Source of the DNA: Escherichia phage 121Q
Reading direction: 5' to 3' (one strand)
DNA: 64,000 nucleotides
Sequence record: NC_025447.1
Below the pieces are notes generated by a model, which ran no database searches, was not told where the DNA came from, and saw only the letters and a program-made list of their open reading frames with translations. Positions 13,614 through 44,545 of the stretch are shown piece after piece. Every line of letters begins with the position of its first letter. Position 1 is the first letter of the stretch. A program made the translations under genes and the position numbers.

Positions 13614-14150
13614 ATGAATAGATTACAACAAATCCTAACTGAAAAGAAACCAGTTTATGAATACCGAGTTAAGTTTGCAGTTGAACCAACACCTGAGCAA
13701 CTTAGTAAAGTAACACAGCGACTAATGGATCGCTATGATGCGTTTGAAATTGGAGCACTAAAGAAAACAATTTTTATGGAAAAACCATTAGATTTCTATG
13801 AATTAGATTGTGGTGAAATTTGGATGTTTGACTTTAAATGTCATCGTGGCGTTCAATCAAATGTACTAATGTATGAAATTGGCAATTTACTAAGCATGAC
13901 AGAAGCATTGATTCGTGTTCGTAGTAAAGATGAACCTCGTCAAATTGAAATGACTGATTTGGAAGATGATATCGATTTTGATGATGTTGATGAACCAGTT
14001 ATTGGAGTGGATTTTGGTAAACCAGAAGACAGTTATGACTTAGCTGGACAACAACGTGCAAACACTGCCGTTGATGATGCAATTGAAGCATCGAAAAAAG
14101 ACAATAAATACTCTCAATATATGAGTGCTGGTTTTGGTAAAAAGGATTAA
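13614..14150 (+). CDS. hypothetical protein
   Basis: ORF with GGAG RBS. Confidence 0.5.
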   Translation: MNRLQQILTEKKPVYEYRVKFAVEPTPEQLSKVTQRLMDRYDAFEIGALKKTIFMEKPLDFYELDCGEIWMFDFKCHRGVQSNVLMYEIGNLLSMTEALIRVRSKDEPRQIEMTDLEDDIDFDDVDEPVIGVDFGKPEDSYDLAGQQRANTAVDDAIEASKKDNKYSQYMSAGFGKKD

Positions 14151-14153
14151 CAC

Positions 14154-14696
14154 ATGAGTATACTTAATGAAATGTTAGATTATGAAGACAATGAGTTAAA
14201 TGAAGCTCGTCCTTATAGTCGTTCACAAAGTGCAGTTGATAGTGCAAAAGGAAAAGTAAAAGGCTTTTTTGGTAGTGGACAGATTGAACAAGGTGCACAA
14301 GAAGTTGGTGCTGAAGCCAACCGCTTATGGGCAGAGTTTAAACGTTATGTTGGACGTAAATATGGTAAAGCTCAACCATCAGTACCTTACGCTGATGTGG
14401 CACAGTTTTTTAAAGGTAACAATCTTGATATTAAACATTTAGGGAACAATCCTCGTCGTTCTTTTACACCAAAAGATGTAGGTACTGCTCTATTAAATGC
14501 TGCTCGTGATATAATGAATGACTACCGTGACCAACAAGGTGGCGAAGAAAGTTCAGAATCACAACCATCACAATCGACCTCAACTGAGCAACCAGCACAA
14601 CAAGAACAACCAAAAGCACAAGGTTCCAGTATCCCTGATGCTCTACAAAAATTAAGTCCAGAGCAACGCGACCAACTGTTACGTATGCTTTCTTAA
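14154..14696 (+). CDS. hypothetical protein with Q/S/E-rich low-complexity C-terminus
   Basis: ORF with AAGGA RBS. Confidence 0.5.
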   Translation: MSILNEMLDYEDNELNEARPYSRSQSAVDSAKGKVKGFFGSGQIEQGAQEVGAEANRLWAEFKRYVGRKYGKAQPSVPYADVAQFFKGNNLDIKHLGNNPRRSFTPKDVGTALLNAARDIMNDYRDQQGGEESSESQPSQSTSTEQPAQQEQPKAQGSSIPDALQKLSPEQRDQLLRMLS

Positions 14697-14709
14697 GGAG
14701 AATCAACAC

Positions 14710-16227
14710 ATGGATAATTTTTTCAGTACTGAAACTACCACAGTTCCTAATGGATATGTATATACGTCACATACTGGTGCAAAATATGTATTTCTTGAAG
14801 GATTCTGGTTCAATGACAATAATATGTTAATGGTAGACCCTAGAAAATACCCATCCATGTACGCAAGTGCTCGACAACAGATTGTCGAGCACAATCTAGC
14901 TTCAAATGAATATAAGATTGGTAACAAATATATTGTTGAAGGTAAAGAGTGTACATTTATTGGTGAAAACCGTTTCAATTCAAAAGATGGAATTCTATTA
15001 ACTGAAAGTGAATTCATCACTGAATTAATGGCAGATGATCATCGAGTATATAATGTTTCTAAAGAAACACTACAAAAAGAATGGAATGCATTAAAATTTT
15101 ACATTCTTCCACCATATGCTGATGATATATCAATTCCAGCAGGTATGGAAGTAAGTGGTTTTAAATTTGTGCCAAAGAATCACCGTTTTGTTGATATGAA
15201 ATCAGGACGAGCAGTTGATCCAGCAATGACCCGTAAACTATCAGATGAAGGTATGCGTATTGCTCGTCAGTTAGCTTCTAAAAATAAACTAATTCCAATC
15301 AAATCAACCTTAGTTCAAGGCAATACACGTTGTGAGTGGAATGGTAAAGAATTTTGTGATAATGATGGTAATGTAGTAATTCCAGAACAAAATGCACATG
15401 CAATTATTAATGCATATCAGCAATTTGTTAAGAATAACCCAAGTGATTTTCCTACATTAACGGGTGAACAAGAACATAGTGAGCAACGTTTTGGTTCAGG
15501 TGAAAAGCCACATAAAGCTTCACACCCTGCTAAACAGCCAGTATTTGCAACTAAAGAATCAATTAATGAAGCAGATGAAGAAATTGAAGAATTTGAAAGC
15601 ATTACTGTTCCTGACGGTTATAGAATGACTTCTTCTAAAGGAAAAACATACGCTAAGAAAAATAACTTGTGGTATGATATCGAAAGTAAAAAGCAACTTA
15701 ACACAAGTGCTTCTAAAAGTGTTGAACGAGCAGCACAGCGTGATATTTTCCGTCATAACAATTCCGGTGCTATGAAAATCGGTACAAAAGTTAAATCCAA
15801 ACAAGGCAAAGAATATTCGTATGTTGGTGGTGACAGATTCATTAGTGCTGATGGTAAGTTTATACCAAAAGCAACTGCTGCTAAATTACTTGCCAAATAT
15901 GAACAAGATAAAGAAGTTAAAAGTGATGAAACACCTGAAGTAGACTCTGGTACTGAGCAAATTCAATCAAAAGAAGAACCTAAGAAAGAACCAGAATCTG
16001 AACAAAAACCAGACGAAGTTTCTGAACCAGAAACTAAATCTGAAACAATTGCTGGTGATGATGTACAATCATTAGCTTCTAAAATTAAAGAGTCACCTTA
16101 TGCTAAAAAAATCACAGTACTACTAACTCGTGGTGATGAGGTTTCTCTACTTGCTGCTGACATTTTACTTTCAGGTAAAAAGGATGAAACAGTGCAAATT
16201 TTAAAATCATTAAATAATAATGATTGA
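14710..16227 (+). CDS. hypothetical protein with internal domain duplication
   Basis: ORF with AGGAG RBS; residues ~10-100 and ~300-395 share VP(N/D)GY..TS..G..Y and KIG.K....GKE..(F/Y)(I/V)G..RF patterns. Confidence 0.5.
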   Translation: MDNFFSTETTTVPNGYVYTSHTGAKYVFLEGFWFNDNNMLMVDPRKYPSMYASARQQIVEHNLASNEYKIGNKYIVEGKECTFIGENRFNSKDGILLTESEFITELMADDHRVYNVSKETLQKEWNALKFYILPPYADDISIPAGMEVSGFKFVPKNHRFVDMKSGRAVDPAMTRKLSDEGMRIARQLASKNKLIPIKSTLVQGNTRCEWNGKEFCDNDGNVVIPEQNAHAIINAYQQFVKNNPSDFPTLTGEQEHSEQRFGSGEKPHKASHPAKQPVFATKESINEADEEIEEFESITVPDGYRMTSSKGKTYAKKNNLWYDIESKKQLNTSASKSVERAAQRDIFRHNNSGAMKIGTKVKSKQGKEYSYVGGDRFISADGKFIPKATAAKLLAKYEQDKEVKSDETPEVDSGTEQIQSKEEPKKEPESEQKPDEVSEPETKSETIAGDDVQSLASKIKESPYAKKITVLLTRGDEVSLLAADILLSGKKDETVQILKSLNNND

Positions 16228-16249
16228 TAACTAAAAGGATTTATTTAAA

Positions 16250-17230
16250 ATGGCTAAAAAAATTAATGAAGCACAAGTTAAAATCGATATCGCAGGTTTA
16301 GAATCTGATGATTTGGAAACTCTATCACGTATGTTAGCTCTTGCTGGTCAAGCTGAACGTCAAGACCCAGTAGTTGCCGCTCCAGTACCATCTATGGGGT
16401 CTATGACTCCATCTCTTCCACCTATTGCTCCACTAGATCTCGATTCTATTGGTGCTGAAGAAGAAATTGGTGGAATTGAAACTTCAGTTGAAGACCCACT
16501 AGCAGCGGCAGTTGATGATCTTTCCGCTGATGTTGGTGATTTTGGTGCTGACACAGATGAAGTTAGTATGGATGCTGAATTTTCAGAACCAGGTGTAGAA
16601 GGTGAAGAAGATTTTTCTCTTGACCTTAGTGGTCAACCTCAACTAGAATCAGTTGAAGAAGACGATGAGGAAGAAGAAGAAATTATTGAAGAAGAATTCG
16701 ATTTTAGTCGTATGCTATCTCTTGCTGGTATTAACGAAGAAGAAGACGAAGATTTTTCAGTAGAGGGTAATCCTGCTACCGATAAAGAAATGAAAGATAC
16801 CCAATTTCTACCAGATCTAAGTATCTCTGAAGATGAAGAACCATCTAACAGTACTGATTATGGTCCATATGATACAGAAGCTGATGCCGTTCGTGATGGT
16901 CAACTAAAGACTAATGGTGTTGAAGGTGACCATTTTGTTGTAATTGCAAAAGGCAATCAATTTTATTGGAGACGTGTTGTAGATGAAGATCTTGACAATC
17001 GTCCAGAACCTGAGTATTATGATAATGAAGGGAACGAAAATCGTGTTCATAAATTTGAACCAAAATTCCCAGGCACTGCATTAGGAGATAACCCACTAAA
17101 TGTTAATGAAAGTGAAGAAGATGATTCACCTGAAGGTAACATTGACTTGGAAGATGATTCTGATGAAGAAGTAGAAGATATTTTTGAAAGTCTCCAAGAA
17201 AAATACAAGAAATTTTTAGGAGACAAATAA
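16250..17230 (+). CDS. highly acidic low-complexity protein
   Basis: Long Asp/Glu runs (DDEEEEEIIEEEFDF); AAGGA RBS. Confidence 0.5.
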   Translation: MAKKINEAQVKIDIAGLESDDLETLSRMLALAGQAERQDPVVAAPVPSMGSMTPSLPPIAPLDLDSIGAEEEIGGIETSVEDPLAAAVDDLSADVGDFGADTDEVSMDAEFSEPGVEGEEDFSLDLSGQPQLESVEEDDEEEEEIIEEEFDFSRMLSLAGINEEEDEDFSVEGNPATDKEMKDTQFLPDLSISEDEEPSNSTDYGPYDTEADAVRDGQLKTNGVEGDHFVVIAKGNQFYWRRVVDEDLDNRPEPEYYDNEGNENRVHKFEPKFPGTALGDNPLNVNESEEDDSPEGNIDLEDDSDEEVEDIFESLQEKYKKFLGDK

Positions 17231-17231
17231 T

Positions 17232-17627
17232 ATGCAATATAATTATCGTGAACTAGTTGAAGCGTTAGACGAAATTACCGGAAGAGATGAAGACGAAAGT
17301 TTTTCAGTTGAAGTTGAATCCGATGTTGTAGCAGTTGATGTTCTTAAGGATATTACCAAATGTCTTATTGATATTGTTGATAAGATTAAATCTGGTGAAG
17401 ACCAAAAAGAAATTGTAGATAAACTACAAAAAGCCTGTGACATTTTGTCTGACATTCGATATAATGATGAAAGTACTGAAGTTGCTGATGAAGAAGTGTT
17501 GGAAGCCATTGCAGGTTGTTTTGGAACTGAAGGTATGGGACCAACAATTGACAAAGAAGGCGTACAACACTATAATGAGCCTGGTGCACCATCATATGCT
17601 GCACGTCAAGGTTTTGTTGGAGACTAA
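17232..17627 (+). CDS. acidic hypothetical protein
   Basis: ORF with AGGAG RBS, tightly coupled to upstream gene. Confidence 0.5.
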   Translation: MQYNYRELVEALDEITGRDEDESFSVEVESDVVAVDVLKDITKCLIDIVDKIKSGEDQKEIVDKLQKACDILSDIRYNDESTEVADEEVLEAIAGCFGTEGMGPTIDKEGVQHYNEPGAPSYAARQGFVGD

Positions 17628-17630
17628 TAT

Positions 17631-18011
17631 ATGTTTCCAGAACCATCACATAACAGTACTGAATATCAAAATAATGTACTTTCCAAAGTTAGGGAAGTAC
17701 ATGAATCAGATTCAGAAATAACAGACCGTATGCTTCTGATGTCAATTTTTGAAAATTTCAGAACTGGCGGTGGTTTACGTCTTAGCAAGTTTGGGTATGG
17801 AATTTGTAAAGAAAATAATCTTTATGAATTTACAAAAATCCCCTTGCAAAGAGAATTTAAAAGTTCTATAATGTTTACATCACTTGACAGAATATGTACT
17901 TCACCTTATTATGTTGAAGGTCAGTACATATATCTGACAGATGCAATGATAATAACTGAATTAACATTGTGTTGTGACGATTTTAAACAGTTATTTTCTA
18001 TTCATATGTAA
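17631..18011 (+). CDS. hypothetical protein
   Basis: ORF with GGAG RBS. Confidence 0.45.
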   Translation: MFPEPSHNSTEYQNNVLSKVREVHESDSEITDRMLLMSIFENFRTGGGLRLSKFGYGICKENNLYEFTKIPLQREFKSSIMFTSLDRICTSPYYVEGQYIYLTDAMIITELTLCCDDFKQLFSIHM

Positions 18012-18035
18012 GAAAAAATGAATTAAAAATAAATG

Positions 18036-18063
18036 TTGACAAGATAGAATGATGTGATACAAT
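18036..18063 (+). promoter_or_regulatory. putative sigma70-type promoter P1 (TTGACA-N16-TACAAT)
   Basis: TTGACA at 18036-18041, TGtgaTACAAT ending 18063. Confidence 0.5.
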
Positions 18064-18128
18064 AAGCATCAGACATAAAGTTTTCAAGCGACACAAGATG
18101 TGAGTTTGAAAAAAAAAGAAAAAAAGTG

Positions 18129-18156
18129 ATTGACAAGTTGAAACGATGTGATATAA
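18129..18156 (+). promoter_or_regulatory. putative sigma70-type promoter P2 (TTGACA-N16-TATAAT, consensus boxes)
   Basis: TTGACA 18129-18134, 16-nt spacer, TGaTATAAT ending 18156. Confidence 0.55.
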
Positions 18157-18218
18157 TGTTCACATCAAGACAGCAAAGAGATTTACCTTTTAAACACACG
18201 GATGATTCATGAAGTAAC

Positions 18219-18266
18219 AAAGGAACTGATAAGTTAAATTATTTTAACACAGTTCCTTTACTTTTG
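18219..18266 (+). promoter_or_regulatory. stem-loop in 5' leader of MoxR gene (10-bp stem AAAGGAACTG/CAGTTCCTTT, 21-nt loop)
   Basis: Perfect inverted repeat 18219-18228 / 18250-18259; weak T-tract after. Confidence 0.3.
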
Positions 18267-18326
18267 CCCACGGATTGGCTATAATAGAAACTTAAACGAT
18301 TTTATCCAACAAAAGGAAATATATAC

Positions 18327-19652
18327 ATGACTACTCAAAACGATATCCTGAACGTTAAACTGACTCCAAAGAAAGCTAAAGAAGCAATGGCACTAGCTGA
18401 CATGATTCAAGATAGCCTGATGATTTGGGGTAGCCCAGGTATCGGTAAGTCTGCAATCGCTCGTCAATACGCTGATGAAAATTACCCACTGCGTAAAGAT
18501 AACGTAGCTAAAATCGAGTTCATGAAACAACAAATCGAAGCTGACCCTGAAAATGCTGATCAGCTACGCCGTGAACTGGCTGCATTTGAAGCAAAACTAA
18601 TCGACCAAGATACTAACTTTATCGATTTCCGTTTGTCTCAAATCGAACCAAGTGACCTTCGCGGTATTCCAGTACCAGAGAAGCTTTTCCGTAAAACTGA
18701 CGGTTCTCTTCTGAAAGAATCTGAGCTTGCCGAAGCAAAAGATTATGTAGCTGAAACTGCGGTAGTATGGGCTGCACCTAAAGTTCTGAAATTGTCCGAA
18801 GATTGGAAAGGTGTTATTCTGTTTGACGAAATTAACTCTGCAATGCCTATTGTTCAGGCAGCGTCTTATCAGCTAATCCTCGACCGTTGTGTTGGTGAGA
18901 TGAAGCTACCTAAGACTGCACTGATTCTTGCAGCAGGTAACCGTGAAACTGATGGCGGTGTAACTTTCTCTCTTGCTACACCACTGCGTGACCGTATGAC
19001 TCACATTGAGATGATTCCTTATCATCAAGATTGGATTAACGATTATGCGATTGCAAAACGTTTGAACCCAGCAACTGTTGCGTTCATCAACAACACTGGT
19101 TCTAAGTACTTTAACACACTTAGTCCACAAGATCCTTCTCACAGTGGTGGTACTTCTCCACGTTCATGGGAAGCAGTAGCACGCTACGAAGATCTCAAGA
19201 AAACTAAGACAATTGATAAAGAAGTGTTCCGTGCAATGATTGCTGGTCGTGTTGGTGAAGGTGTTGCAACTGAATACATTGAGTACGTTGAGAACGTTGC
19301 TAAACTACCAGATACTATGTCTATTCTGTCTGGTGAAATCAAAGAAATCGACGCAACGCTGGATATTTCTGCGAACTACTTTATCACTCTGAACTTGGTT
19401 TATAAAATTATCGACCTGTTCAATGAGAAGCAAGAACAACGTCTACCAGTGGAAGAATGGGGTAAACTGTGTAACAACTTCATCACCTTCCTAGACCATA
19501 ACTTCTCTGCAACTCAAGCAGAACTGGCAGTACTGGCAATTCGTACCATCACGCTTCATAAGGTTGCGATTTCCATTAAAGATGTACCAGCGTTTAAAGA
19601 TTTCATCGCTAAGTACTCTGAACTTGTACGTAAAGCACGCTCTCTTGGCTAA
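18327..19652 (+). CDS. MoxR-like AAA+ ATPase
   Basis: Walker A GSPGIGKS, Walker B ILFDEIN, Arg-rich sensor region; long insertion between Walker A and B. Confidence 0.8.
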   Translation: MTTQNDILNVKLTPKKAKEAMALADMIQDSLMIWGSPGIGKSAIARQYADENYPLRKDNVAKIEFMKQQIEADPENADQLRRELAAFEAKLIDQDTNFIDFRLSQIEPSDLRGIPVPEKLFRKTDGSLLKESELAEAKDYVAETAVVWAAPKVLKLSEDWKGVILFDEINSAMPIVQAASYQLILDRCVGEMKLPKTALILAAGNRETDGGVTFSLATPLRDRMTHIEMIPYHQDWINDYAIAKRLNPATVAFINNTGSKYFNTLSPQDPSHSGGTSPRSWEAVARYEDLKKTKTIDKEVFRAMIAGRVGEGVATEYIEYVENVAKLPDTMSILSGEIKEIDATLDISANYFITLNLVYKIIDLFNEKQEQRLPVEEWGKLCNNFITFLDHNFSATQAELAVLAIRTITLHKVAISIKDVPAFKDFIAKYSELVRKARSLG

Positions 19653-19671
19653 TTAACAAAGAGTTGTTGAC

Positions 19672-19703
19672 AAGAAGGATGCCTAATGGTATCCTTCTTT
19701 TAT
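19672..19703 (+). terminator. terminator/attenuator between MoxR and VWA genes
   Basis: AAGAAGGAT-10 nt loop-ATCCTTCTT then TTTAT. Confidence 0.45.
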
Positions 19704-19726
19704 CTTAACTAAACGAGGAAATATAC

Positions 19727-21151
19727 ATGTCAGATAACAAATCTACTTCCAGATTCAATGAAGTATCTCCGGCACTCCAGAAAGAATGTCAAGATCGTCT
19801 GGTTCTGGCTCGTACATCTTTGATGTTAACTGCACCATTCTTTGGTGTACTCGCTTCACGTTTACGTCCAGTTCCTAATAATACATGGTGTCGTACTCTA
19901 GCAGTTGATGGTAAACATCTATTCTACAACGTAGAATTTGTAATGGGTATTCAAGACCCATCTAAAAAGAAAGAATATGAAGAAGCTATTCGTGAAAAGC
20001 ATCCTGAAGTTACAGACGAACAATTAAAAGAAATGACTGAAGGTTTGACTGATGAAAACCTTATTGCTGTAATTTGTCATGAAATTCTACACTGTGCTTA
20101 CGATCACTTCCTTCGTCGTGGTATGCGTGATCCACAACGTTATAACCGTGCAGCGGATTATGCCATTAACCAAATCATCGTTCGTGAGAAAATTGGAAAA
20201 ATCCAAAGTTCATGGTTGTATGATAAAAAATATGAAGGTATGACCGCAGAAGAGATTTACATTCTTCTTGAAGAAGAAGAACAAAAAGAAGATGGTGAAG
20301 GTGAAGGTCAACCACAAAGTGGCGGCGGTGAAGGTGAAGGTAAAAATCGCGGTACTTTTGGTGATATTAAAGATGGTAAGGGTAAACCAAAAGGTACTAC
20401 CATTGACCAGCATGACGTTCCACAAGAAGGTCAAGAAGGTGGTTCAAGTGAACAGCAAAAACGTGATTATATGGATGATTTCAAAACAGCAATGATGAAT
20501 GCTGCACGTGCAGGTGGTACACCAGCAGAAATCGCTCGTATGATTAACAACTTTAAAGAACCAAAGATTGACTGGCGTTCAAAACTTCAACGTACACTTC
20601 GTAGTTGGTTGAAGTCTGATGCAACGTATCAAAGTCCTTCTCGTCGTTCATGGGGTGCTGGTTTTGGTTCTAATGGTTCATTCTATGGTAATCCAATTTA
20701 CCCAGGGATGAAACCAGATGATGATATTGATATTGCGATTGCACTAGATGCTTCTGGGTCTATTTCTGAAGATATGCTTCGTGATTTCATTAGTGAAGTT
20801 CTTGGCATCACTAAACAATTCAAACAGTTTAAGATTCGTATCATGACTTTTGATACTGAAGTTTATACTGTAAAGGATTACAAAACTGGCGAAGAACGTA
20901 AGATTCTGGAATATCCAGTAAAAGGTGGTGGTGGTACTGACTTTGAAGCAGTATGGGTTCATATGAAGAACGACAACTACAAGCCTAAACAGCTTGTAAT
21001 GTTTACTGATGGTGAACCGTGGCAGTCATGGGGTGATCCAAACTACTGTAAAACACTGTTCGTGATTCACAGTAACCCAAATAAAGTTGCACCATTTGGT
21101 GAGACTGTACACTACGAATATGAAGCTGATAAAAAGCGTCAACGTAGTTAA
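19727..21151 (+). CDS. metallopeptidase-like (HExxH) / von Willebrand factor A domain protein, partner of the MoxR ATPase
   Basis: HEILH motif near residue 119; Gly/Glu-rich linker; C-terminal MIDAS-like DASGS ... MFTDGEP typical of VWA domains. Confidence 0.75.
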   Translation: MSDNKSTSRFNEVSPALQKECQDRLVLARTSLMLTAPFFGVLASRLRPVPNNTWCRTLAVDGKHLFYNVEFVMGIQDPSKKKEYEEAIREKHPEVTDEQLKEMTEGLTDENLIAVICHEILHCAYDHFLRRGMRDPQRYNRAADYAINQIIVREKIGKIQSSWLYDKKYEGMTAEEIYILLEEEEQKEDGEGEGQPQSGGGEGEGKNRGTFGDIKDGKGKPKGTTIDQHDVPQEGQEGGSSEQQKRDYMDDFKTAMMNAARAGGTPAEIARMINNFKEPKIDWRSKLQRTLRSWLKSDATYQSPSRRSWGAGFGSNGSFYGNPIYPGMKPDDDIDIAIALDASGSISEDMLRDFISEVLGITKQFKQFKIRIMTFDTEVYTVKDYKTGEERKILEYPVKGGGGTDFEAVWVHMKNDNYKPKQLVMFTDGEPWQSWGDPNYCKTLFVIHSNPNKVAPFGETVHYEYEADKKRQRS

Positions 21152-21162
21152 GTACTAAATAA

Positions 21163-21194
21163 AGAGAACGGAATTTTCCGTTCTCTTCTTTTAT
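21163..21194 (+). terminator. rho-independent terminator after VWA gene
   Basis: AGAGAACGG-aatttt-CCGTTCTCT then TCTTTTAT. Confidence 0.65.
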
Positions 21195-21196
21195 AA

Positions 21197-21226
21197 GTGG
21201 GACAACTTATAAAAATATGATATAAT
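21197..21226 (+). promoter_or_regulatory. putative early promoter, motif GTGGGACA-N13-TGATATAAT (second copy)
   Basis: Directly after terminator of VWA gene; identical box spacing to 2184-2213. Confidence 0.4.
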
Positions 21227-23691: not shown

Positions 23692-23726
23692 ACGAAAAGG
23701 GAGAACATCAGTTCTCCCTTTTTTAT
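23690..23726. terminator. bidirectional terminator between convergent td and fibre genes
   Basis: AAGGGAGAAC-atca-GTTCTCCCTT flanked by A-run and T-run. Confidence 0.7.
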
Positions 23727-40656: not shown

Positions 40657-42158
40657 TCTGTGTCCTTATGTATGCGATAAACAGTATTAGGTTTAACTGC
40701 GTCATGTAATGGAACTTTGTTATCACTATTTACAAACTGTGTAAGTGCTAAGTCTGCACCTTCCCACGGTTTTCTTCCACCATAATCAAAAATAACCCAT
40801 GAATTCTTAGTTGCATTGAATTCCCATAACGTAACTGGAGTATAATCGGTGCGATAGAAATAGTCACCATCTACTGCATCAGTTGGGAACATATTTCCTT
40901 CAGGGACTGTACCTCGTGCTGGTGGAATTTTAGGACGATAATCTTGTTGCGAATCAATATTACCATATACACAATTGGACGTGAATGGTTCATTGACATA
41001 AGTTACCTTTGGTTCCCCCCACTTGTCATCATTATACTGATAAATGTGTGGTTCTTTATAAAAAATACAAAAATCTTCCACATCTTCTGGTGGAACATCA
41101 CTGGTAGTATATTCTACATCACAATTTAACCATTTTTTAGCACTTTTATCATATTGATACAACGTATAACCTGTCACATCTGCGTCATTTTCTTTAAAGA
41201 AGAAGTCACCATCCATTGGTTTTCTGGGAAAGATGGTTCCACGCTTGACTTCCACAGAAATCCATGTATCATTAACAAACTCTTTGAGTACTGGGTATGT
41301 TTTTTTCAAAAAATACATTCCATCGGCAGGTTCTTCTGGAAAATCATAACCGTTAAGCATATATTTTGATAAATCTACTGTATCAGGTCGATCATCATAC
41401 AAATGTTCATTTGTATAATGAATATAGGGTACTTCATCATCAGCTTGCATGATGATACGGTTCATGATATCCATTTCATTGCCATAGTTACTGTTTTCCG
41501 ACGAACCATCATCGGTATTTCCATTACCATTATTAGGGTCATCTGGATTATCAGGATAATTATTGTTACCGAGTAAATCGGAGTACTCAGGTGAGTCGGT
41601 TAGCGGTTTAACTCTAAGTTTATAAATGTGATGTTGCCACGTAACCGAGTATCCCTCAGATGTACGAAATGCATCTTGGACGACATAGAAGCGGTTTAGA
41701 CCTGTATCTTTACCCAATACATCAAAATCACGTAAATTTGGTAGTTCTATCACATCCCCTGGCATGATTTTTCTACCTAAACGCTGCATCATTGTATTAT
41801 AATGGATTGTGATGTCCATAGTGTTGAAATTAAAGAACAATCCTGGGATTTTCAAGTCTGGAGTTGCTTCTTGAACTTGATAGACACAACTAAGTGTGAT
41901 AGCTTCAAGGTTGTAGTTTCTGTTTGGTGTGTCACCAAAAATTAAATCGCCAATACTTGACACAACTGATCCTGAAGATGTATAATCACCTCCATAGGAT
42001 AAGTCAGTGTTGTCAGCAACTTGTTTTGGACCGACATATGCATAAAGCCACATGTCAACTCCACCAATGTTGTATTGTTCAGCAATGGCAGAATCAATGA
42101 ACTTGTAATCATTGGTTCTACCTTTTTTCCACATTCTATATGTCATGATTGTCTCCAA
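40653..42158 (-). CDS. hypothetical structural protein with three DG(D/M)(Y/F)F-type repeats
   Basis: P.DGMYFLKK, P.DGDFFFKE, A.DGDYFYRT motifs spaced through the protein. Confidence 0.45.
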   Translation of the reverse strand: METIMTYRMWKKGRTNDYKFIDSAIAEQYNIGGVDMWLYAYVGPKQVADNTDLSYGGDYTSSGSVVSSIGDLIFGDTPNRNYNLEAITLSCVYQVQEATPDLKIPGLFFNFNTMDITIHYNTMMQRLGRKIMPGDVIELPNLRDFDVLGKDTGLNRFYVVQDAFRTSEGYSVTWQHHIYKLRVKPLTDSPEYSDLLGNNNYPDNPDDPNNGNGNTDDGSSENSNYGNEMDIMNRIIMQADDEVPYIHYTNEHLYDDRPDTVDLSKYMLNGYDFPEEPADGMYFLKKTYPVLKEFVNDTWISVEVKRGTIFPRKPMDGDFFFKENDADVTGYTLYQYDKSAKKWLNCDVEYTTSDVPPEDVEDFCIFYKEPHIYQYNDDKWGEPKVTYVNEPFTSNCVYGNIDSQQDYRPKIPPARGTVPEGNMFPTDAVDGDYFYRTDYTPVTLWEFNATKNSWVIFDYGGRKPWEGADLALTQFVNSDNKVPLHDAVKPNTVYRIHKDTE

Positions 42159-42189: not shown

Positions 42190-42217
42190 AGACAAACCGT
42201 AAGAATGTGATATAATG
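42190..42217 (+). promoter_or_regulatory. putative sigma70-type promoter for ClpA-like gene (TAGACA-N16-TGaTATAAT)
   Basis: In divergent intergenic region; -10 identical to the TGTGATATAAT class. Confidence 0.45.
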
Positions 42218-42256
42218 TTTATTAATTAGAGTGACGTGAATCACATAGGAGAATAC

Positions 42257-44545
42257 ATGAATCTTACTCAATTGTTCAAAAAAAGCGACGAACTGGCAAC
42301 ATCTCTAGGTCATACATTCTTGACTATTGACCACGTAAGTGCCACAGTACTGACTATTGATAGCATCAAGAACGTATTTGAAGATATGAACATTGATGCA
42401 GACAAACTGCACAACCGCCTGATGAACTATCTTAAAAATACAACAGTTCCACATGCACCAAAAAGTGTTAAAGATGAAGACGCGAATCGAACTTCACTTC
42501 TAGTGAATCGCGTTGTACATGAGCTTTCTAAAAAATCAGTCATTGAACAACTAAAAAGTGATGATTTTTCGATTGATGCATATTTTGTTCTATTCGAATG
42601 TCTGTCTTTCCCTAACACAGCACTAGAAGCTGCGTTAAAAGAAGAAGGTGTTAGCTGTACTGAAGCTGCACGTGCATTACAGAAACACGTTGAGTCACTT
42701 GATAAGGGTATCAACTTACAAAGTATTAATGACGAACCGATTGGAGATAAAAAAGTGGCCCAACAGCAGCAATCATCTAAACAAAAAGGTTTGGAAGACT
42801 ATACAACGAATCTAACTGCTCTTGCAAAAGAAGGCAAACTAGATCCTATGATTGGTCGCCAGAAAGAATTGTCTGCATTGATTGAGACTCTTGCTCGCAA
42901 AACCAAAAAGAATGCTATTCTCACTGGTGAAGCTGGTGTAGGTAAAACACAAATCATCGACGGGCTTGCACAAGCTATTGCTGATGGTAACGTACCTGAA
43001 CACCTGAAAGACGTTGAAATTCTTTCACTAAATGTTGGTGCATTGACTGCTGGTACTAAGTATCGTGGTGAATTTGAAGAACGCATCGACAATTTGCTAA
43101 AAGAACTAAAGAAACGTGAAAATACTATTGTTTTCATTGATGAAATTCATATTATGGTTGGGGCTGGTTCCGCAAGTAATGGTTCTATGGACATGAGCAA
43201 TATGCTTAAGCCAGCACTTTCACGTGGTGAGATTCGTGTAATTGGTGCAACAACATATGATGAATATCGTAAAAATATCGAGAAAGATAGTGCATTAACT
43301 CGTCGTTTTATGAAAATTGACGTAGTTGAGCCGACAATTGATGAAACTCGTGCAATTGTTAATGGTTTGAAACCAACGTATGAAAAATTCCATAATGTTG
43401 AGTTCACATCTGATGCAATGGATGCTGTAATTTCTCTCAGTGATAAATTCCTGAAGAATAAGCACTTCCCAGATAAAGCAATTGATCTAATGGATGCTGC
43501 TGCGGCTAAAGTTCGTTCACGTGACAACAATAGTAAGCTAATTACTGCCAATTTGATTCAAGAAGTTGTTGCTGGTATTGCCAATTTGGATATCAACGTG
43601 GTTGCATGTACTGAAAGTGATCGTATGCGTAATCTACCAGATGCACTACGCTCACGTGTATACGGTCAAGAGGAAGCTATTCAAAAATTAGTTGATAACG
43701 TGATGGTAGCTCGTGCAGGACTGCGTGACAAATCTAGTGTTCAGGGTGCATTTATGTTTGTTGGACCATCTGGTACTGGTAAAACAGAAATTACCAAAGC
43801 ATTAGCAGACGCAACTGGTGCGGAACTCATTCGCTTTGATATGTCAGAATTTTCTCAAGAACATACTGTTTCTAAACTAATTGGTTCACCTCCAGGTTAT
43901 GTTGGTCATGATTCTGGTAACGGTTTACTGTTGGATAAAATTGAGCAGTTCCCTAATGCAGTACTGTTACTTGATGAAATTGAAAAAGCAGATCGTAAAG
44001 TACTACTAACCTTCCTACAGGTTTTGGATGAAGGTCGTCTGACTGGTTCTCAAGGTAAAACTGTATATTTTAATAACGTAACTGTTATTATGACTACAAA
44101 CCTTGGTGCGGCTGATTCAACAAAGCGTAGCATTGGTATGAGCGGTAGTGACACTGCACAGGACAAGGCAATTAAAGCATTCTTGCCACCAGAGTTTATT
44201 AACCGTATTGATAGTATCGTTACGTTTAAAGACCTAAGCAGTGAAGCTATTGACAGCATCATTGATAAGTTCATGGGTGGTTTGAATGAACAAGTCAAAG
44301 ACCGTAATGTTAAAGTTACATTAACAAAAGCTGCACGTGAATGGCTTGCGAAAAATGGGGTAAAAGTTGGTATGGGTGCACGTCCAATGAAACGTACCAT
44401 TGAACAAAACATTCGTGTGCCACTAGCTAAAGAAATGTTGTGTGGTTCACTTGTGAATGGTGGTAACATTACATTTGATGTTATTGATGGTAAAATCGGT
44501 ATTAAGCCGAAACGTACCAAAGCTGTAGATAAAGCACTAGTATAA
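42257..44545 (+). CDS. ClpA-like AAA+ unfoldase (Clp N-domain plus D1 and D2 ATPase modules, no ClpB middle domain)
   Basis: ORF track 42236-44545, ATG 42257 preferred (AGGAG RBS); D1 Walker A GEAGVGKT and Walker B FIDEIH; D2 GPSGTGKT and LLLDEIEKA; D2 loop [10 protein letters not shown] at the position of the ClpA IGL ClpP-docking loop. Confidence 0.85.

What the first reader, a model, noticed from the sequence alone, without database searches (positions are those of the whole stretch)
18036..18326. Tandem near-consensus sigma70 promoters and a leader hairpin upstream of the MoxR gene
The 315-bp non-coding gap holds TTGACA-N16-TACAAT (18036-18063) and TTGACA-N16-TATAAT with a TG extension (18129-18156), then a perfect 10-bp stem-loop (18219-18259) and a possible third -10 (TATAAT ~18280). 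Such strong stacked promoters are the most conspicuous regulatory signal in the window and imply very high early expression or a small RNA made from this leader.
Basis: seen in the sequence. Interest (0 to 1): 0.5.

Follow-up and report, generated by a model that had tools for sequence, protein, structure and literature searches.

The report
Conserved promoter-terminator-GGA hairpin leader of MoxR
The gap upstream of a jumbo coliphage's MoxR ATPase gene does hold two real-looking strong host-type promoters, but they fire into a conserved transcription terminator followed by a small RNA hairpin with a GGA loop, a control cassette shared by the 24 distinct related phage sequences examined that probably limits and tunes expression of the gene rather than maximising it.

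Summary
The window is an Asteriusvirus jumbo coliphage, 100% identical here to vB_EcoM_G17, phAPEC6 and Sharanji.

P1 (18036-18063) and P2 (18130-18157) each have a consensus -35, a 16-bp spacer, a TGTGa extended -10 and an upstream A tract. Their hexamers stay invariant in relatives while the spacers drift. P1 is an Asteriusvirus-specific tandem copy of P2.

The 10-bp hairpin (18219-18259) is a conserved intrinsic-terminator hairpin with compensatory changes and a U tract. It lies just downstream of a TGnTATAAT promoter in all 24 distinct Rak2-like sequences examined.

It is a short covarying hairpin (18266-18279) whose loop is NGGA in 24 of 24 sequences, usually A(C/U)GGAU. This matches the published high-affinity CsrA/RsmE site. 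A second ANGGAN lies upstream of the terminator in 23 of 24.

The third -10 (18280-18285) is lineage-specific.

My reading is a composite leader. Strong early promoters feed an attenuating terminator that yields leader RNAs of about 100 and 195 nt. Read-through mRNA carries a GGA hairpin that controls MoxR-VWA expression after transcription, possibly through host CsrA. No transcript data exist, so this remains inference.

The parts
18013..18034 (+). A-rich UP-like tract upstream of P1
   Evidence: Sequence AAAAAATGAATTAAAAATAAATG read directly. An A run is conserved in relatives.
18036..18063 (+). Promoter P1: TTGACA, 16-bp spacer, TACAAT, with TG at 18055-18056
   Evidence: Hexamers invariant in Asteriusvirus relatives, most of which carry TATAAT. 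Absent outside Asteriusvirus. It is a tandem duplicate of the P2 unit.
18081..18113 (+). Hairpin in the P1-only leader (TTTTCAAGC..CACAAGATGTG..GTTTGAAAA); overlaps the UP tract of P2
   Evidence: Minimum-free-energy fold. TTTTCAA, GATGTGAG and TTGAAAA are invariant. Function not addressed.
18108..18128 (+). A-rich UP-like tract upstream of P2
   Evidence: GAAAAAAAAAGAAAAAAAGTG; conserved.
18130..18157 (+). Promoter P2: TTGACA, 16-bp spacer, TATAAT (12/12), with TGTGa extended -10
   Evidence: A counterpart TGnTATAAT promoter sits upstream of the terminator in every relative.
18163..18172 (+). Conserved start-of-transcript motif CATCAAGACA (ATTAAGAGA or GTTAAGAAA in other genera); predicted P2 start near A18164
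   Evidence: columns conserved across 13 distant sequences. The start site is inferred from the 7-nt distance to the -10.
18197..18204 (+). Upstream GGA motif (CACGGATG), of the ANGGAN type
   Evidence: Present in 23 of 24 distinct cassettes upstream of the terminator. It lies in a small hairpin loop in Hallingskeid and L018.
18219..18259 (+). HP1: terminator hairpin with a 10-bp outer stem and a 6-bp inner stem. The pairing extends to 18211-18266, and the U tract TTTACTTTT is at 18257-18265.
   Evidence: Annotated as an ARNOLD terminator in the G17 record. Compensatory changes occur at 5 stem positions across 24 sequences. In the GAP32- and BF-like phages it is a canonical 9-10-bp stem, 6-8-nt loop and U6 terminator.
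18266..18279 (+). HP2: short hairpin GCC(C)-ACGGAT-(T)GGC with a GGA loop, directly after the U tract
   Evidence: Stem covaries: CCAAA/UUUGG, UCAGA/UCUGA, GCUUA/UAAGC, CUCA/UGAG. The loop is NGGA in 24 of 24 sequences. It forms in the minimum-free-energy fold.
18257..18285 (+). P3: TTTACT, 17-bp spacer, TATAAT (10/12). It overlaps the HP1 3' arm and HP2.
   Evidence: The TATAAT is invariant in Asteriusvirus and Hallingskeid but degenerate in RaK2 (TATCAT), Munch, BF and GAP32-like phages.
18313..18329 (+). Shine-Dalgarno AAGGAA (18313-18318), which contains another GGA, and the MoxR start codon ATG (18327-18329)
18327..19652 (+). MoxR-like AAA+ ATPase gene (phAPEC6 gp265c)
   Evidence: Detected in the phAPEC6 virion proteome (PMC7247149).
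19727..21151 (+). DUF2201_N/VWA-like gene (N4 gp25-like), the downstream partner gene
   Evidence: Pfam DUF2201_N E = 2.7e-34 and DUF2201 E = 7e-21.

Best explanation
The gap is a composite 5' control region for the MoxR-VWA gene pair, conserved across Rak2-like jumbo phages.

(1) Host RNA polymerase with sigma70 starts at P2, and in Asteriusvirus also at its tandem duplicate P1. Both have a UP-like A tract, a consensus -35, a TRTGn extended -10 and a near-consensus -10.

(2) About 55 nt (P2) or 150 nt (P1) later the transcript forms HP1, an intrinsic-terminator hairpin followed by a U tract. Most transcripts should therefore end near 18265. This gives leader RNAs of about 100 nt and 195 nt, and only read-through transcripts reach MoxR. 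In Asteriusvirus transcripts from the weaker P3 would also reach it.

(3) Read-through mRNA carries HP2 immediately after the terminator. HP2 is a short hairpin that presents A(C/U)GGAU in its loop, and a second ANGGAN lies 5' of HP1. In the enterobacterial lineages the Shine-Dalgarno sequence holds a third GGA. These are most simply binding sites for a GGA-loop-specific RNA-binding protein, with host CsrA the best candidate. Such a protein would set translation or stability of the MoxR message.

Shown here: presence and conservation of the promoters, HP1 and HP2; covariation in both helices; invariance of the GGA loop; linkage to MoxR.

Inferred: promoter use and timing, termination efficiency, the identity of the HP2 ligand, and the direction of regulation.
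For: Promoters:
- P1 and P2 match the consensus 11/12 and 12/12, each with TG.
- Hexamers are invariant while spacers vary in relatives.
- TRTGnTATAAT occurs five times in the window, always on the + strand and always in an intergenic gap upstream of a gene, so it looks like a promoter class.
- The CBB study predicted RpoD-like promoters with UP elements and a TGAAACG-N16-TATAAT class in related phages (PMC5259590). The promoter upstream of MoxR in the GAP32- and BF-like loci belongs to the second class.

Terminator:
- A U tract follows HP1 in all sequences.
- Distant homologues have textbook terminators, for example AAAGCACUG-N6-CAGUGCUUUCUUUUUUG.
- Stem covariation includes GC<->AU 14:10, CG<->AU 16:7 and UA<->AU.
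- The G17 record annotates it as a terminator.

HP2:
- 90.1% of cells are paired, 7 of 14 pairs show double changes, and the covariation score is 0.295 against 0.102 in shuffles (0 of 500 reach it). Slid controls score 0.166 or less. The independent MAFFT alignment gives the same picture.
- NGGA is in the loop in 24 of 24 sequences, and ANGGAN lies upstream of HP1 in 23 of 24.
- Published CsrA/RsmE sites are AUGGA or [A/C]UGGA in apical loops (PMC5207318). The high-affinity form is an ANGGAX hexaloop on a stem, and the solved hcnA loop is ACGGAU (PMC4005645).
- Phage EJP2 is a natural rearrangement. There HP1 stays with an upstream promoter, while HP2 stays in the MoxR leader behind a separate UP plus TTGACA-N17-TATAAT promoter.

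The cassette occurs once in the window (80 bits; the next hits are plain terminators at 30 bits or less). In IMG/VR contigs pre-selected by an exact HP1-like sequence pattern, the model scored above 50 bits only on Rak2-like contigs.
Against: - No transcript 5' or 3' ends exist for any of these phages.
- In this window the HP1 loop is 21 nt, longer than in typical terminators, although it is closed by an inner helix. The simple terminator scan did not call it.
- In this window HP2 is only a 3-bp GC stem with an 8-nt loop, because a C-U mismatch abuts the loop.
- HP2 lies downstream of the terminator, so it cannot influence termination at HP1.
- In Asteriusvirus P3 overlaps HP2, and a P3 transcript would lack it.
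- The BF- and GAP32-like lineages have no GGA in the Shine-Dalgarno region, so the classic model of a CsrA dimer bridging a hairpin and the SD does not hold for all members.
- ANGGAN hairpins are not enriched in the window: 13 against 9.0 +/- 2.6.
- MoxR is a virion protein in phAPEC6, which suggests late expression that could come from the upstream structural operon rather than from P1 or P2.
Confidence: 0.5

Rival explanations
1. The promoter-to-HP1 unit is a gene for a trans-acting small RNA (about 100 nt from P2 here, 55-70 nt in other genera). It has a conserved 5' seed (AUCAAGACA or AUUAAGAGA), an ANGGAN site and a terminator with a U tail. It acts on host or phage mRNAs, or binds Hfq or CsrA. 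MoxR is expressed separately, from P3 or from late read-through.
For: The promoter-before-terminator order holds in all 24 sequences, including EJP2, where the unit is separated from the MoxR promoter. The first 8-10 transcribed bases are conserved across genera, as is typical of sRNA seeds (my own knowledge). The promoters are very strong here.
Against: The unit is always directly upstream of MoxR. The purine-rich 5' motif has no identified target. In EJP2 the short unit lacks both the 5' motif and the GGA site. There is no Rfam match. This reading does not explain HP2, which lies beyond the terminator.
Confidence: 0.2
2. HP1 is simply the terminator of the upstream late structural operon (13614-18011). 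The promoters are ordinary promoters for MoxR that leak through it. HP2 is a target for a phage-encoded RNA-binding protein or nuclease, such as a RegB-like or translational-repressor function, or a 5' stabiliser left after processing. Host CsrA is not involved.
For: The upstream genes are virion structural proteins on the same strand. Similar A-tract/U-tract terminators follow MoxR, VWA and ThyA. No CsrA homologue was found in these phages. The BF-like group lacks a GGA in the Shine-Dalgarno region.
Against: A terminator serving only the upstream operon could lie before the promoter, as at 21162-21226 in this window. The reverse order is kept in every lineage. The HP2 loop matches the CsrA/RsmE consensus closely. 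No candidate phage protein was identified.
Confidence: 0.2
3. This is a processive antitermination unit of the lambda Q or N type. A constitutive promoter makes a short terminated RNA until a phage factor modifies RNA polymerase, so that it reads through HP1 and the downstream terminators at 19672 and 21162. The factor would engage at the conserved start-of-transcript motif or at HP2 acting as a boxB-like site.
For: A strong promoter followed by a nearby terminator and then genes matches the lambda PR'-tR' layout (my own knowledge). The initial transcribed sequence is conserved. Further terminators lie between the downstream genes.
Against: HP2 lies after HP1, so it could act only on later terminators. 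Its loop is not a GNRA-like boxB loop. No boxA or Q-binding element, and no N- or Q-like gene, was identified. None of this was tested.
Confidence: 0.07
4. The consensus boxes and hairpin are chance features of AT-rich non-coding DNA and have no regulatory role.
For: The window is 35% GC, and promoter-like hexamers are common: 73 found against 70.5 expected at the lax threshold. Four intragenic 11-12/12 sites nearby drift in relatives.
Against: The hexamers are invariant while the spacers vary. Both hairpins covary, and the cassette is kept between phages whose MoxR proteins are only 54-60% identical. Positions 18190-18326 are nearly invariant across Asteriusvirus phages whose flanking sequence (query 17600-18700) is about 87% identical to this window.
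Confidence: 0.03

Closest known systems
Strong sigma70 early promoters of virulent coliphages, and the RpoD-like promoters with UP elements predicted in Rak2-like phages CBB and GAP32 (PMC5259590)
   Same: Consensus -35 and -10, a 16-bp spacer, an extended -10 and an upstream A tract. Dependence on host polymerase fits phages that lack their own polymerase but encode sigma factors.
   Different: Here the promoters are followed within about 55-150 nt by a conserved terminator. P1 and P2 are a recent tandem duplication. In sister genera the same position holds the TGAAACG-N16-TATAAT class instead of TTGACA.
Promoter-proximal intrinsic terminators (attenuators), as in the lambda PR'-tR' unit that makes 6S RNA
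   Same: A promoter is followed by a short leader, a hairpin with a U tract, and then the gene. A short terminated RNA is the expected default product.
   Different: No leader peptide: the small ORFs are not conserved. No alternative antiterminator pairing was found. There is no Rfam riboswitch or T-box match, and no known antiterminator protein or site.
CsrA/RsmA binding hairpins in 5' UTRs (glgC and hcnA leaders; ANGGAX hexaloop on a stem)
   Same: The GGA is invariant in the apical loop of a short covarying stem. The loops ACGGAU and AUGGAU are identical to published high-affinity sites. There are two or three GGA sites in one leader, one of them in the Shine-Dalgarno sequence in the enterobacterial lineages.
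   Different: The element is in a lytic jumbo phage, next to a terminator. The BF- and GAP32-like lineages have no GGA in the Shine-Dalgarno region. In this window the stem is only 3 bp with an 8-nt loop. Binding is untested, and the phages encode no CsrA of their own.

Membership tests
sigma70-dependent promoter (E. coli consensus, with UP element and extended -10) | -35 TTGACA and -10 TATAAT separated by 16-18 bp | tested here: met
   P1 matches 11/12 and P2 12/12, both with 16-bp spacers.
sigma70-dependent promoter (E. coli consensus, with UP element and extended -10) | TGn (TRTGn) directly upstream of the -10, and an A/T-rich UP tract at about -40 to -60 | tested here: met
   TGTGa precedes both -10 boxes, and A tracts lie at 18013-18034 and 18108-18128. 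They were compared with the UP consensus by eye only.
sigma70-dependent promoter (E. coli consensus, with UP element and extended -10) | Evolutionary pattern of a promoter: hexamers kept, spacer free to vary | tested here: met
   The nearby intragenic look-alikes at 17548 and 17884 drift instead.
sigma70-dependent promoter (E. coli consensus, with UP element and extended -10) | Mapped transcription start site or promoter activity | not testable with these tools
   No transcript data were found in the literature searches.
Intrinsic (Rho-independent) terminator | Stable G+C-containing stem with a short loop | tested here: inconclusive
   In the window the stem is 10 bp with 4 G-C pairs, but the loop is 21 nt, closed by a 6-bp inner helix, and the simple scan missed it. 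In GAP32- and BF-like phages the stem is 9-10 bp with a 6-8-nt loop. ARNOLD called it a terminator in the G17 record.
Intrinsic (Rho-independent) terminator | U-rich tract immediately 3' of the stem | tested here: met
   UUUACUUUU in the window; CUCUUUU and UUUCUUUUUU in relatives.
Intrinsic (Rho-independent) terminator | Helix maintained by compensatory substitutions | tested here: met
   5 of 10 pairs show double changes and 92.9% of cells are paired.
Intrinsic (Rho-independent) terminator | Measured termination | not testable with these tools
   Needs in vitro transcription or Term-seq.
CsrA/RsmA binding site | Invariant GGA within an A(N)GGAX context | tested here: met
   NGGA is present in 24 of 24 HP2 loops, with ACGGAU or AUGGAU in most. 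ANGGAN lies upstream of HP1 in 23 of 24. The consensus comes from PMC5207318 and PMC4005645.
CsrA/RsmA binding site | GGA presented in the apical loop of a hairpin | tested here: met
   The HP2 stem covaries. In this window the stem is only 3 bp with an 8-nt loop.
CsrA/RsmA binding site | A second site within reach of the dimer, usually overlapping the Shine-Dalgarno sequence | tested here: inconclusive
   The SD AAGGAA at 18313-18318 lies about 42 nt from the HP2 GGA in Asteriusvirus, and RaK2, Munch and Hallingskeid are similar. The BF- and GAP32-like lineages have no GGA in the SD, only the site upstream of HP1.
CsrA/RsmA binding site | Demonstrated CsrA binding or CsrA-dependent expression | not testable with these tools
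   Needs EMSA, CLIP or reporter assays.
Any Rfam family (riboswitch, T-box, leader, sRNA) | Covariance-model score at or above the gathering threshold | tested here: not met
   No hits at gathering score in the whole window. Only sub-threshold matches to eukaryotic miRNA and snoRNA families appear in 17950-18400.
Leader-peptide attenuator | Conserved short ORF overlapping the terminator or antiterminator | tested here: not met
   ATG-initiated mini-ORFs of 2-27 codons appear in some lineages and are absent in others such as Munch and Hallingskeid (sequences, read by eye).

The most novel reading that the evidence does not exclude
Host CsrA, or another GGA-loop-binding host factor, directly controls a conserved gene pair of a whole clade of lytic jumbo phages. 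It would act through an ANGGAX hairpin and a partner GGA that flank a promoter-proximal terminator. This would couple MoxR-VWA production to the host's Csr state. In addition, or instead, the abundant terminated leader RNA would itself bind CsrA or Hfq as a phage small RNA.
Probability: 0.25. Interest if true: 0.6.

Novelty: new member of a known kind. Interest (0 to 1): 0.42.

Why it matters
Gene regulation in Rak2-like jumbo phages (Asteriusvirus, Alcyoneusvirus, Eneladusvirus, and the GAP32-, CBB- and Munch-like groups) rests so far on motif prediction only. This cassette is a well-defined cis-regulatory RNA that is not in Rfam. It is conserved between phages whose MoxR proteins are only 54-60% identical. 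It also makes concrete predictions that can be tested: short RNAs ending near 18265, and GGA-dependent control of MoxR.

If the GGA hairpin is a CsrA site, it would be an example of a virulent phage using a global host post-transcriptional regulator for one of its own operons.

For annotation, the result shows that 'strong promoter upstream of a gene' should not be read here as 'strongly expressed gene'.

Tried and rejected
- Cluster of 11-12/12 sigma70-like sites inside the upstream ORFs (16992, 17437, 17548, 17884). They drift at synonymous positions in relatives, and 17548 and 17884 lose their match. I treat them as mostly chance.
- TGAAACG inside the P2 spacer. It resembles the CBB and GAP32 '-35' box, but it is in the wrong register (6 nt rather than 16 nt from the -10) and is not conserved (CCTGAACG in the 87% clade). 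I treat it as coincidence.
- A closing helix between the 5' AAGAGA and the U tract. It is 84% paired with only one double change, which is trivial for a purine run opposite a U run, so it is not supported.
- Leader peptide. The small ORFs are not conserved.
- Other copies of the cassette. The covariance model finds only 18196-18290 in the window, and the next hits are ordinary terminators. In IMG/VR the pattern hits are generic terminators except for the same jumbo-phage contigs.
- A broader set of ANGGAN hairpins in the window. They are not enriched: 13 against 9.0 +/- 2.6.
- A phage-encoded CsrA. tblastn with E. coli CsrA gave no match in any record named as an Escherichia or Klebsiella phage; by first word of the organism name the hits were Pseudomonas, Vibrio, Xanthomonas, Acinetobacter and a few others, including one Erwinia and one Salmonella record (the listed Salmonella record is a bacterial contig; the Erwinia record was not inspected).
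- A transcription-primed replication origin. GC skew follows gene orientation, with no inflection at 18 kb.
- PA5oct ncRNA003 as a possible homologue. It is not next to a MoxR gene.
- A minus-strand ORF at 18023-18220 (65 aa, TTG start). Indels of 1-5 nt among close relatives break it.
- Rfam at a relaxed threshold. Only noise was returned.
Full report
**Identity of the window.** Positions 17600-18700 are 100% identical to Escherichia phages vB_EcoM_G17, phAPEC6 and Sharanji. They are 87-99.9% identical to about 30 other Asteriusvirus jumbo phages. The finding lies in a 315-bp gap (18012-18326). Upstream is a 126-aa ORF of unknown function, the last gene of a same-strand block of virion structural genes. 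Downstream is a MoxR-like AAA+ ATPase (18327-19652, phAPEC6 gp265c), followed by a DUF2201_N/VWA-like gene (19727-21151). The ATPase was detected in the phAPEC6 virion by mass spectrometry (PMC7247149).

**Checking the observation.**
- P1 is TTGACA 18036-41, a 16-bp spacer and TACAAT 18058-63.
- P2 is TTGACA 18130-35, a 16-bp spacer and TATAAT 18152-57.
- The perfect 10-bp stem is 18219-28 paired with 18250-59.
- The third TATAAT is at 18280-85.
- Both P1 and P2 carry a TGTGa extended -10 and are preceded by A tracts.

Sites matching 11 or 12 of 12 number 12 in the window against 6.0 +/- 2.8 in shuffles. TTGACA-N13-TGnTAYAAT matches exactly only at P1 and P2. The leader RNAs fold better than shuffles, with z from -2.8 to -4.0.

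**Are the promoters real?** In Asteriusvirus relatives down to 87% identity, the -35 and -10 hexamers and the block GATGTGATAtAAT are invariant, while the upstream half of each spacer changes. That is the pattern expected of a working promoter. Four equally good hexamer pairs inside the upstream ORFs do not show it. TRTGnTATAAT occurs five times in the window, always on the + strand and always in a gap upstream of a gene, so it marks a promoter class of this phage. The two 94-bp units containing P1 and P2 share 72 of 86 aligned bases, with an alignment score of 57 against 26 +/- 5 for shuffles. P1 is absent outside Asteriusvirus, so it is a lineage-specific tandem duplicate of P2.

**The hairpin is a conserved terminator.** I collected the region upstream of MoxR from 24 distinct phages and viral or metagenomic contigs. 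They include RaK2, Salmonella phage Munch, Erwinia phage Hallingskeid, Serratia phage BF and GAP32-like contigs, and their MoxR proteins are 54-100% identical to the one here.

Every one has the same order of elements:
- a TGnTATAAT promoter;
- a conserved first 8-10 transcribed bases (CATCAAGACA, ATTAAGAGA or GTTAAGAAA);
- an ANGGAN motif;
- a hairpin with stem AAGGCACUG/CAGUGCCUU or a compensated variant;
- a U tract.

In the distant genera the promoter is TGAAACG-N16-TATAAT. This is the 'divergent RpoD-like' class reported for CBB and GAP32 (PMC5259590). In those genera the hairpin is a textbook intrinsic terminator with a 9-10-bp stem, a 6-8-nt loop and UUUCUUUUUU. In the enterobacterial lineages the loop is long, but an inner helix always closes it. 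The G17 GenBank record already annotates this hairpin as an ARNOLD terminator.

Stem positions switch between GC and AU (14:10), CG and AU (16:7), and UA and AU.

**A second hairpin that was not reported.** Directly after the U tract lies a 4-6-bp stem that covaries freely. Observed versions include CCAAA/UUUGG, UCAGA/UCUGA, GCUUA/UAAGC, CUCA/UGAG and ACAAA/UUUGU. It is closed over a loop that is NGGA in 24 of 24 sequences, usually within A(C/U)GGAU. In the window it is GCC-CACGGAUU-GGC at 18266-18279.

Over both helices, 90.1% of cells are paired and 7 of 14 pairs show double changes. The covariation score is 0.295 against 0.102 in shuffles (0 of 500 reach it) and at most 0.166 in slid controls. 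An independent MAFFT alignment gives the same result.

Positions 18190-18326 are almost invariant across Asteriusvirus phages whose flanking sequence (query 17600-18700) is about 87% identical to this window.

The stem sequence varies while the asymmetric loop is fixed. This points to an RNA hairpin read in single-stranded form, not a palindromic DNA operator.

**What the GGA loop resembles.** CLIP-seq in Salmonella found that CsrA binds AUGGA or [A/C]UGGA in apical loops (PMC5207318). Structural work defines the high-affinity CsrA/RsmE site as an ANGGAX hexaloop sitting on a stem, and the solved hcnA loop is ACGGAU (PMC4005645). HP2 fits this description.

The upstream motif in the window, CACGGAUG (18197-18204), also fits in sequence. 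In the enterobacterial lineages the Shine-Dalgarno sequence contributes a further GGA (AAGGAA, 18313-18318, about 42 nt from HP2).

tblastn with E. coli CsrA gave no match in any record named as an Escherichia or Klebsiella phage; one Erwinia and one Salmonella record did match, and the listed Salmonella record is a bacterial contig. A CsrA-type ligand would therefore most likely be the host protein.

Several points count against this reading. The BF- and GAP32-like lineages have no GGA in the SD region. The stem in the window is weak. ANGGAN hairpins are not enriched in the window. Nothing about binding has been tested.

**A natural rearrangement.** In phage EJP2 the extended -10 promoter and HP1 come first. 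A separate UP plus TTGACA-N17-TATAAT promoter follows, then the CACATCAAGAC start motif, then HP2 (ACCAA-CGGA-UUUUGGU) and the SD GAGGAA. So HP1 travels with an upstream promoter and HP2 travels with the MoxR leader. The cassette therefore has two separable modules.

**Model.**
- Host RNA polymerase starts at P2, and here also at P1.
- Most transcripts end at HP1, giving leader RNAs of about 100 and 195 nt.
- Read-through transcripts, plus transcripts from the lineage-specific P3 in Asteriusvirus, form the MoxR-VWA mRNA.
- On read-through mRNA, the GGA hairpin and its partner sites are bound by a GGA-specific RNA-binding protein, most likely CsrA, which sets translation or stability.

The anatomy, conservation and covariation are shown. 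Promoter use, timing, termination efficiency and the ligand are inferred.

**Rivals.**
- The promoter-HP1 unit may be a trans-acting small RNA gene.
- HP1 may be only the terminator of the late structural operon, with HP2 read by a phage protein or nuclease.
- The unit may be a Q/N-like antitermination device.
- Chance is excluded by the comparative data.

**What is known and what is new.** Sigma70-like promoters with UP elements and the TGAAACG class were predicted before in related phages, and the hairpin is annotated as a terminator in one record. I found no description of the promoter-terminator-GGA hairpin cassette, and there is no Rfam family for it. No transcript mapping for any Rak2-like phage turned up in the searchable literature. 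I class it as a new member of known kinds: an attenuator-type leader with a CsrA-type hairpin.

**Verdict.** Interest is moderate at 0.42: the finding is ordinary in its parts, but it is a cleanly conserved and testable regulatory RNA in a poorly studied phage clade.

Noticed in passing
window 16992-17020, 17437-17465, 17548-17576, 17884-17912 (+ strand): Four sigma70-like sites matching 11-12 of 12 lie within 900 bp inside the structural-protein ORFs just upstream of the gap. 17548 and 17884 degrade in relatives. 17437 (GTGACA...TATAAT) is kept even in RaK2, possibly through coding constraint.
   Followed up: partly
window 2267-2277, 5804-5814, 21216-21226, 42206-42216 (+ strand): TRTGnTATAAT extended -10 boxes sit in intergenic gaps upstream of genes. 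Three of them have (G/T)(G/A)GACAA as the -35 (2186, 21199, 42189). This is a probable promoter class of the phage with a non-consensus -35.
   Followed up: partly
window 19672-19699, 21162-21187, 23694-23723 (+ strand): Predicted intrinsic terminators follow each of MoxR, the VWA-like gene and thymidylate synthase. At 21162-21226 the order is terminator then promoter, the reverse of the MoxR cassette.
   Followed up: partly
L013 (Escherichia phage EJP2) 1183-1500: The MoxR upstream region is rearranged. The short promoter-HP1 unit comes first, then a second hairpin (GCATCTC...GAGATGA), then a UP plus TTGACA-N17-TATAAT promoter, and then HP2 and the SD.
   Followed up: partly
L019, L022-L024, L026, L028, L031, L118 (GAP32- and BF-like contigs), about 75 nt upstream of HP1: The stop codon TGA of the upstream ORF is the first three bases of the TGAAACG promoter box. 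The CBB study scanned only 100 bp upstream of each gene, and the MoxR (CBB_216) gap is 137 nt. This may be why no Porf_216 appeared in the part of its Table S6 that I read.
   Followed up: partly
window 18051, 18097, 18145 (+ strand): GATGTGA occurs three times at 46-48-bp spacing, and TGTGA-N8-TCACA brackets the P2 -10 box (18147-18164). The repeats follow from the duplication. A repressor operator over the -10 was not tested.
   Followed up: no
window 18001-20000: The MoxR gene region has higher GC (0.393 against about 0.35) and zero GC skew compared with the flanking same-strand genes.
   Followed up: no
window 41957-41986 (+ strand): A 12/12 TTGACA-N18-TATAAT site lies inside a minus-strand ORF, about 230 bp upstream of the 42189 promoter-like site and the + strand gene that starts near 42236-42258. 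It may be a second tandem arrangement.
   Followed up: no
window 2687-3518: This is an 830-bp stretch with no ORF of 100 aa or more. It ends in a terminator (3478-3505) that is followed directly by the SD and start of the ORF at 3518.
   Followed up: no
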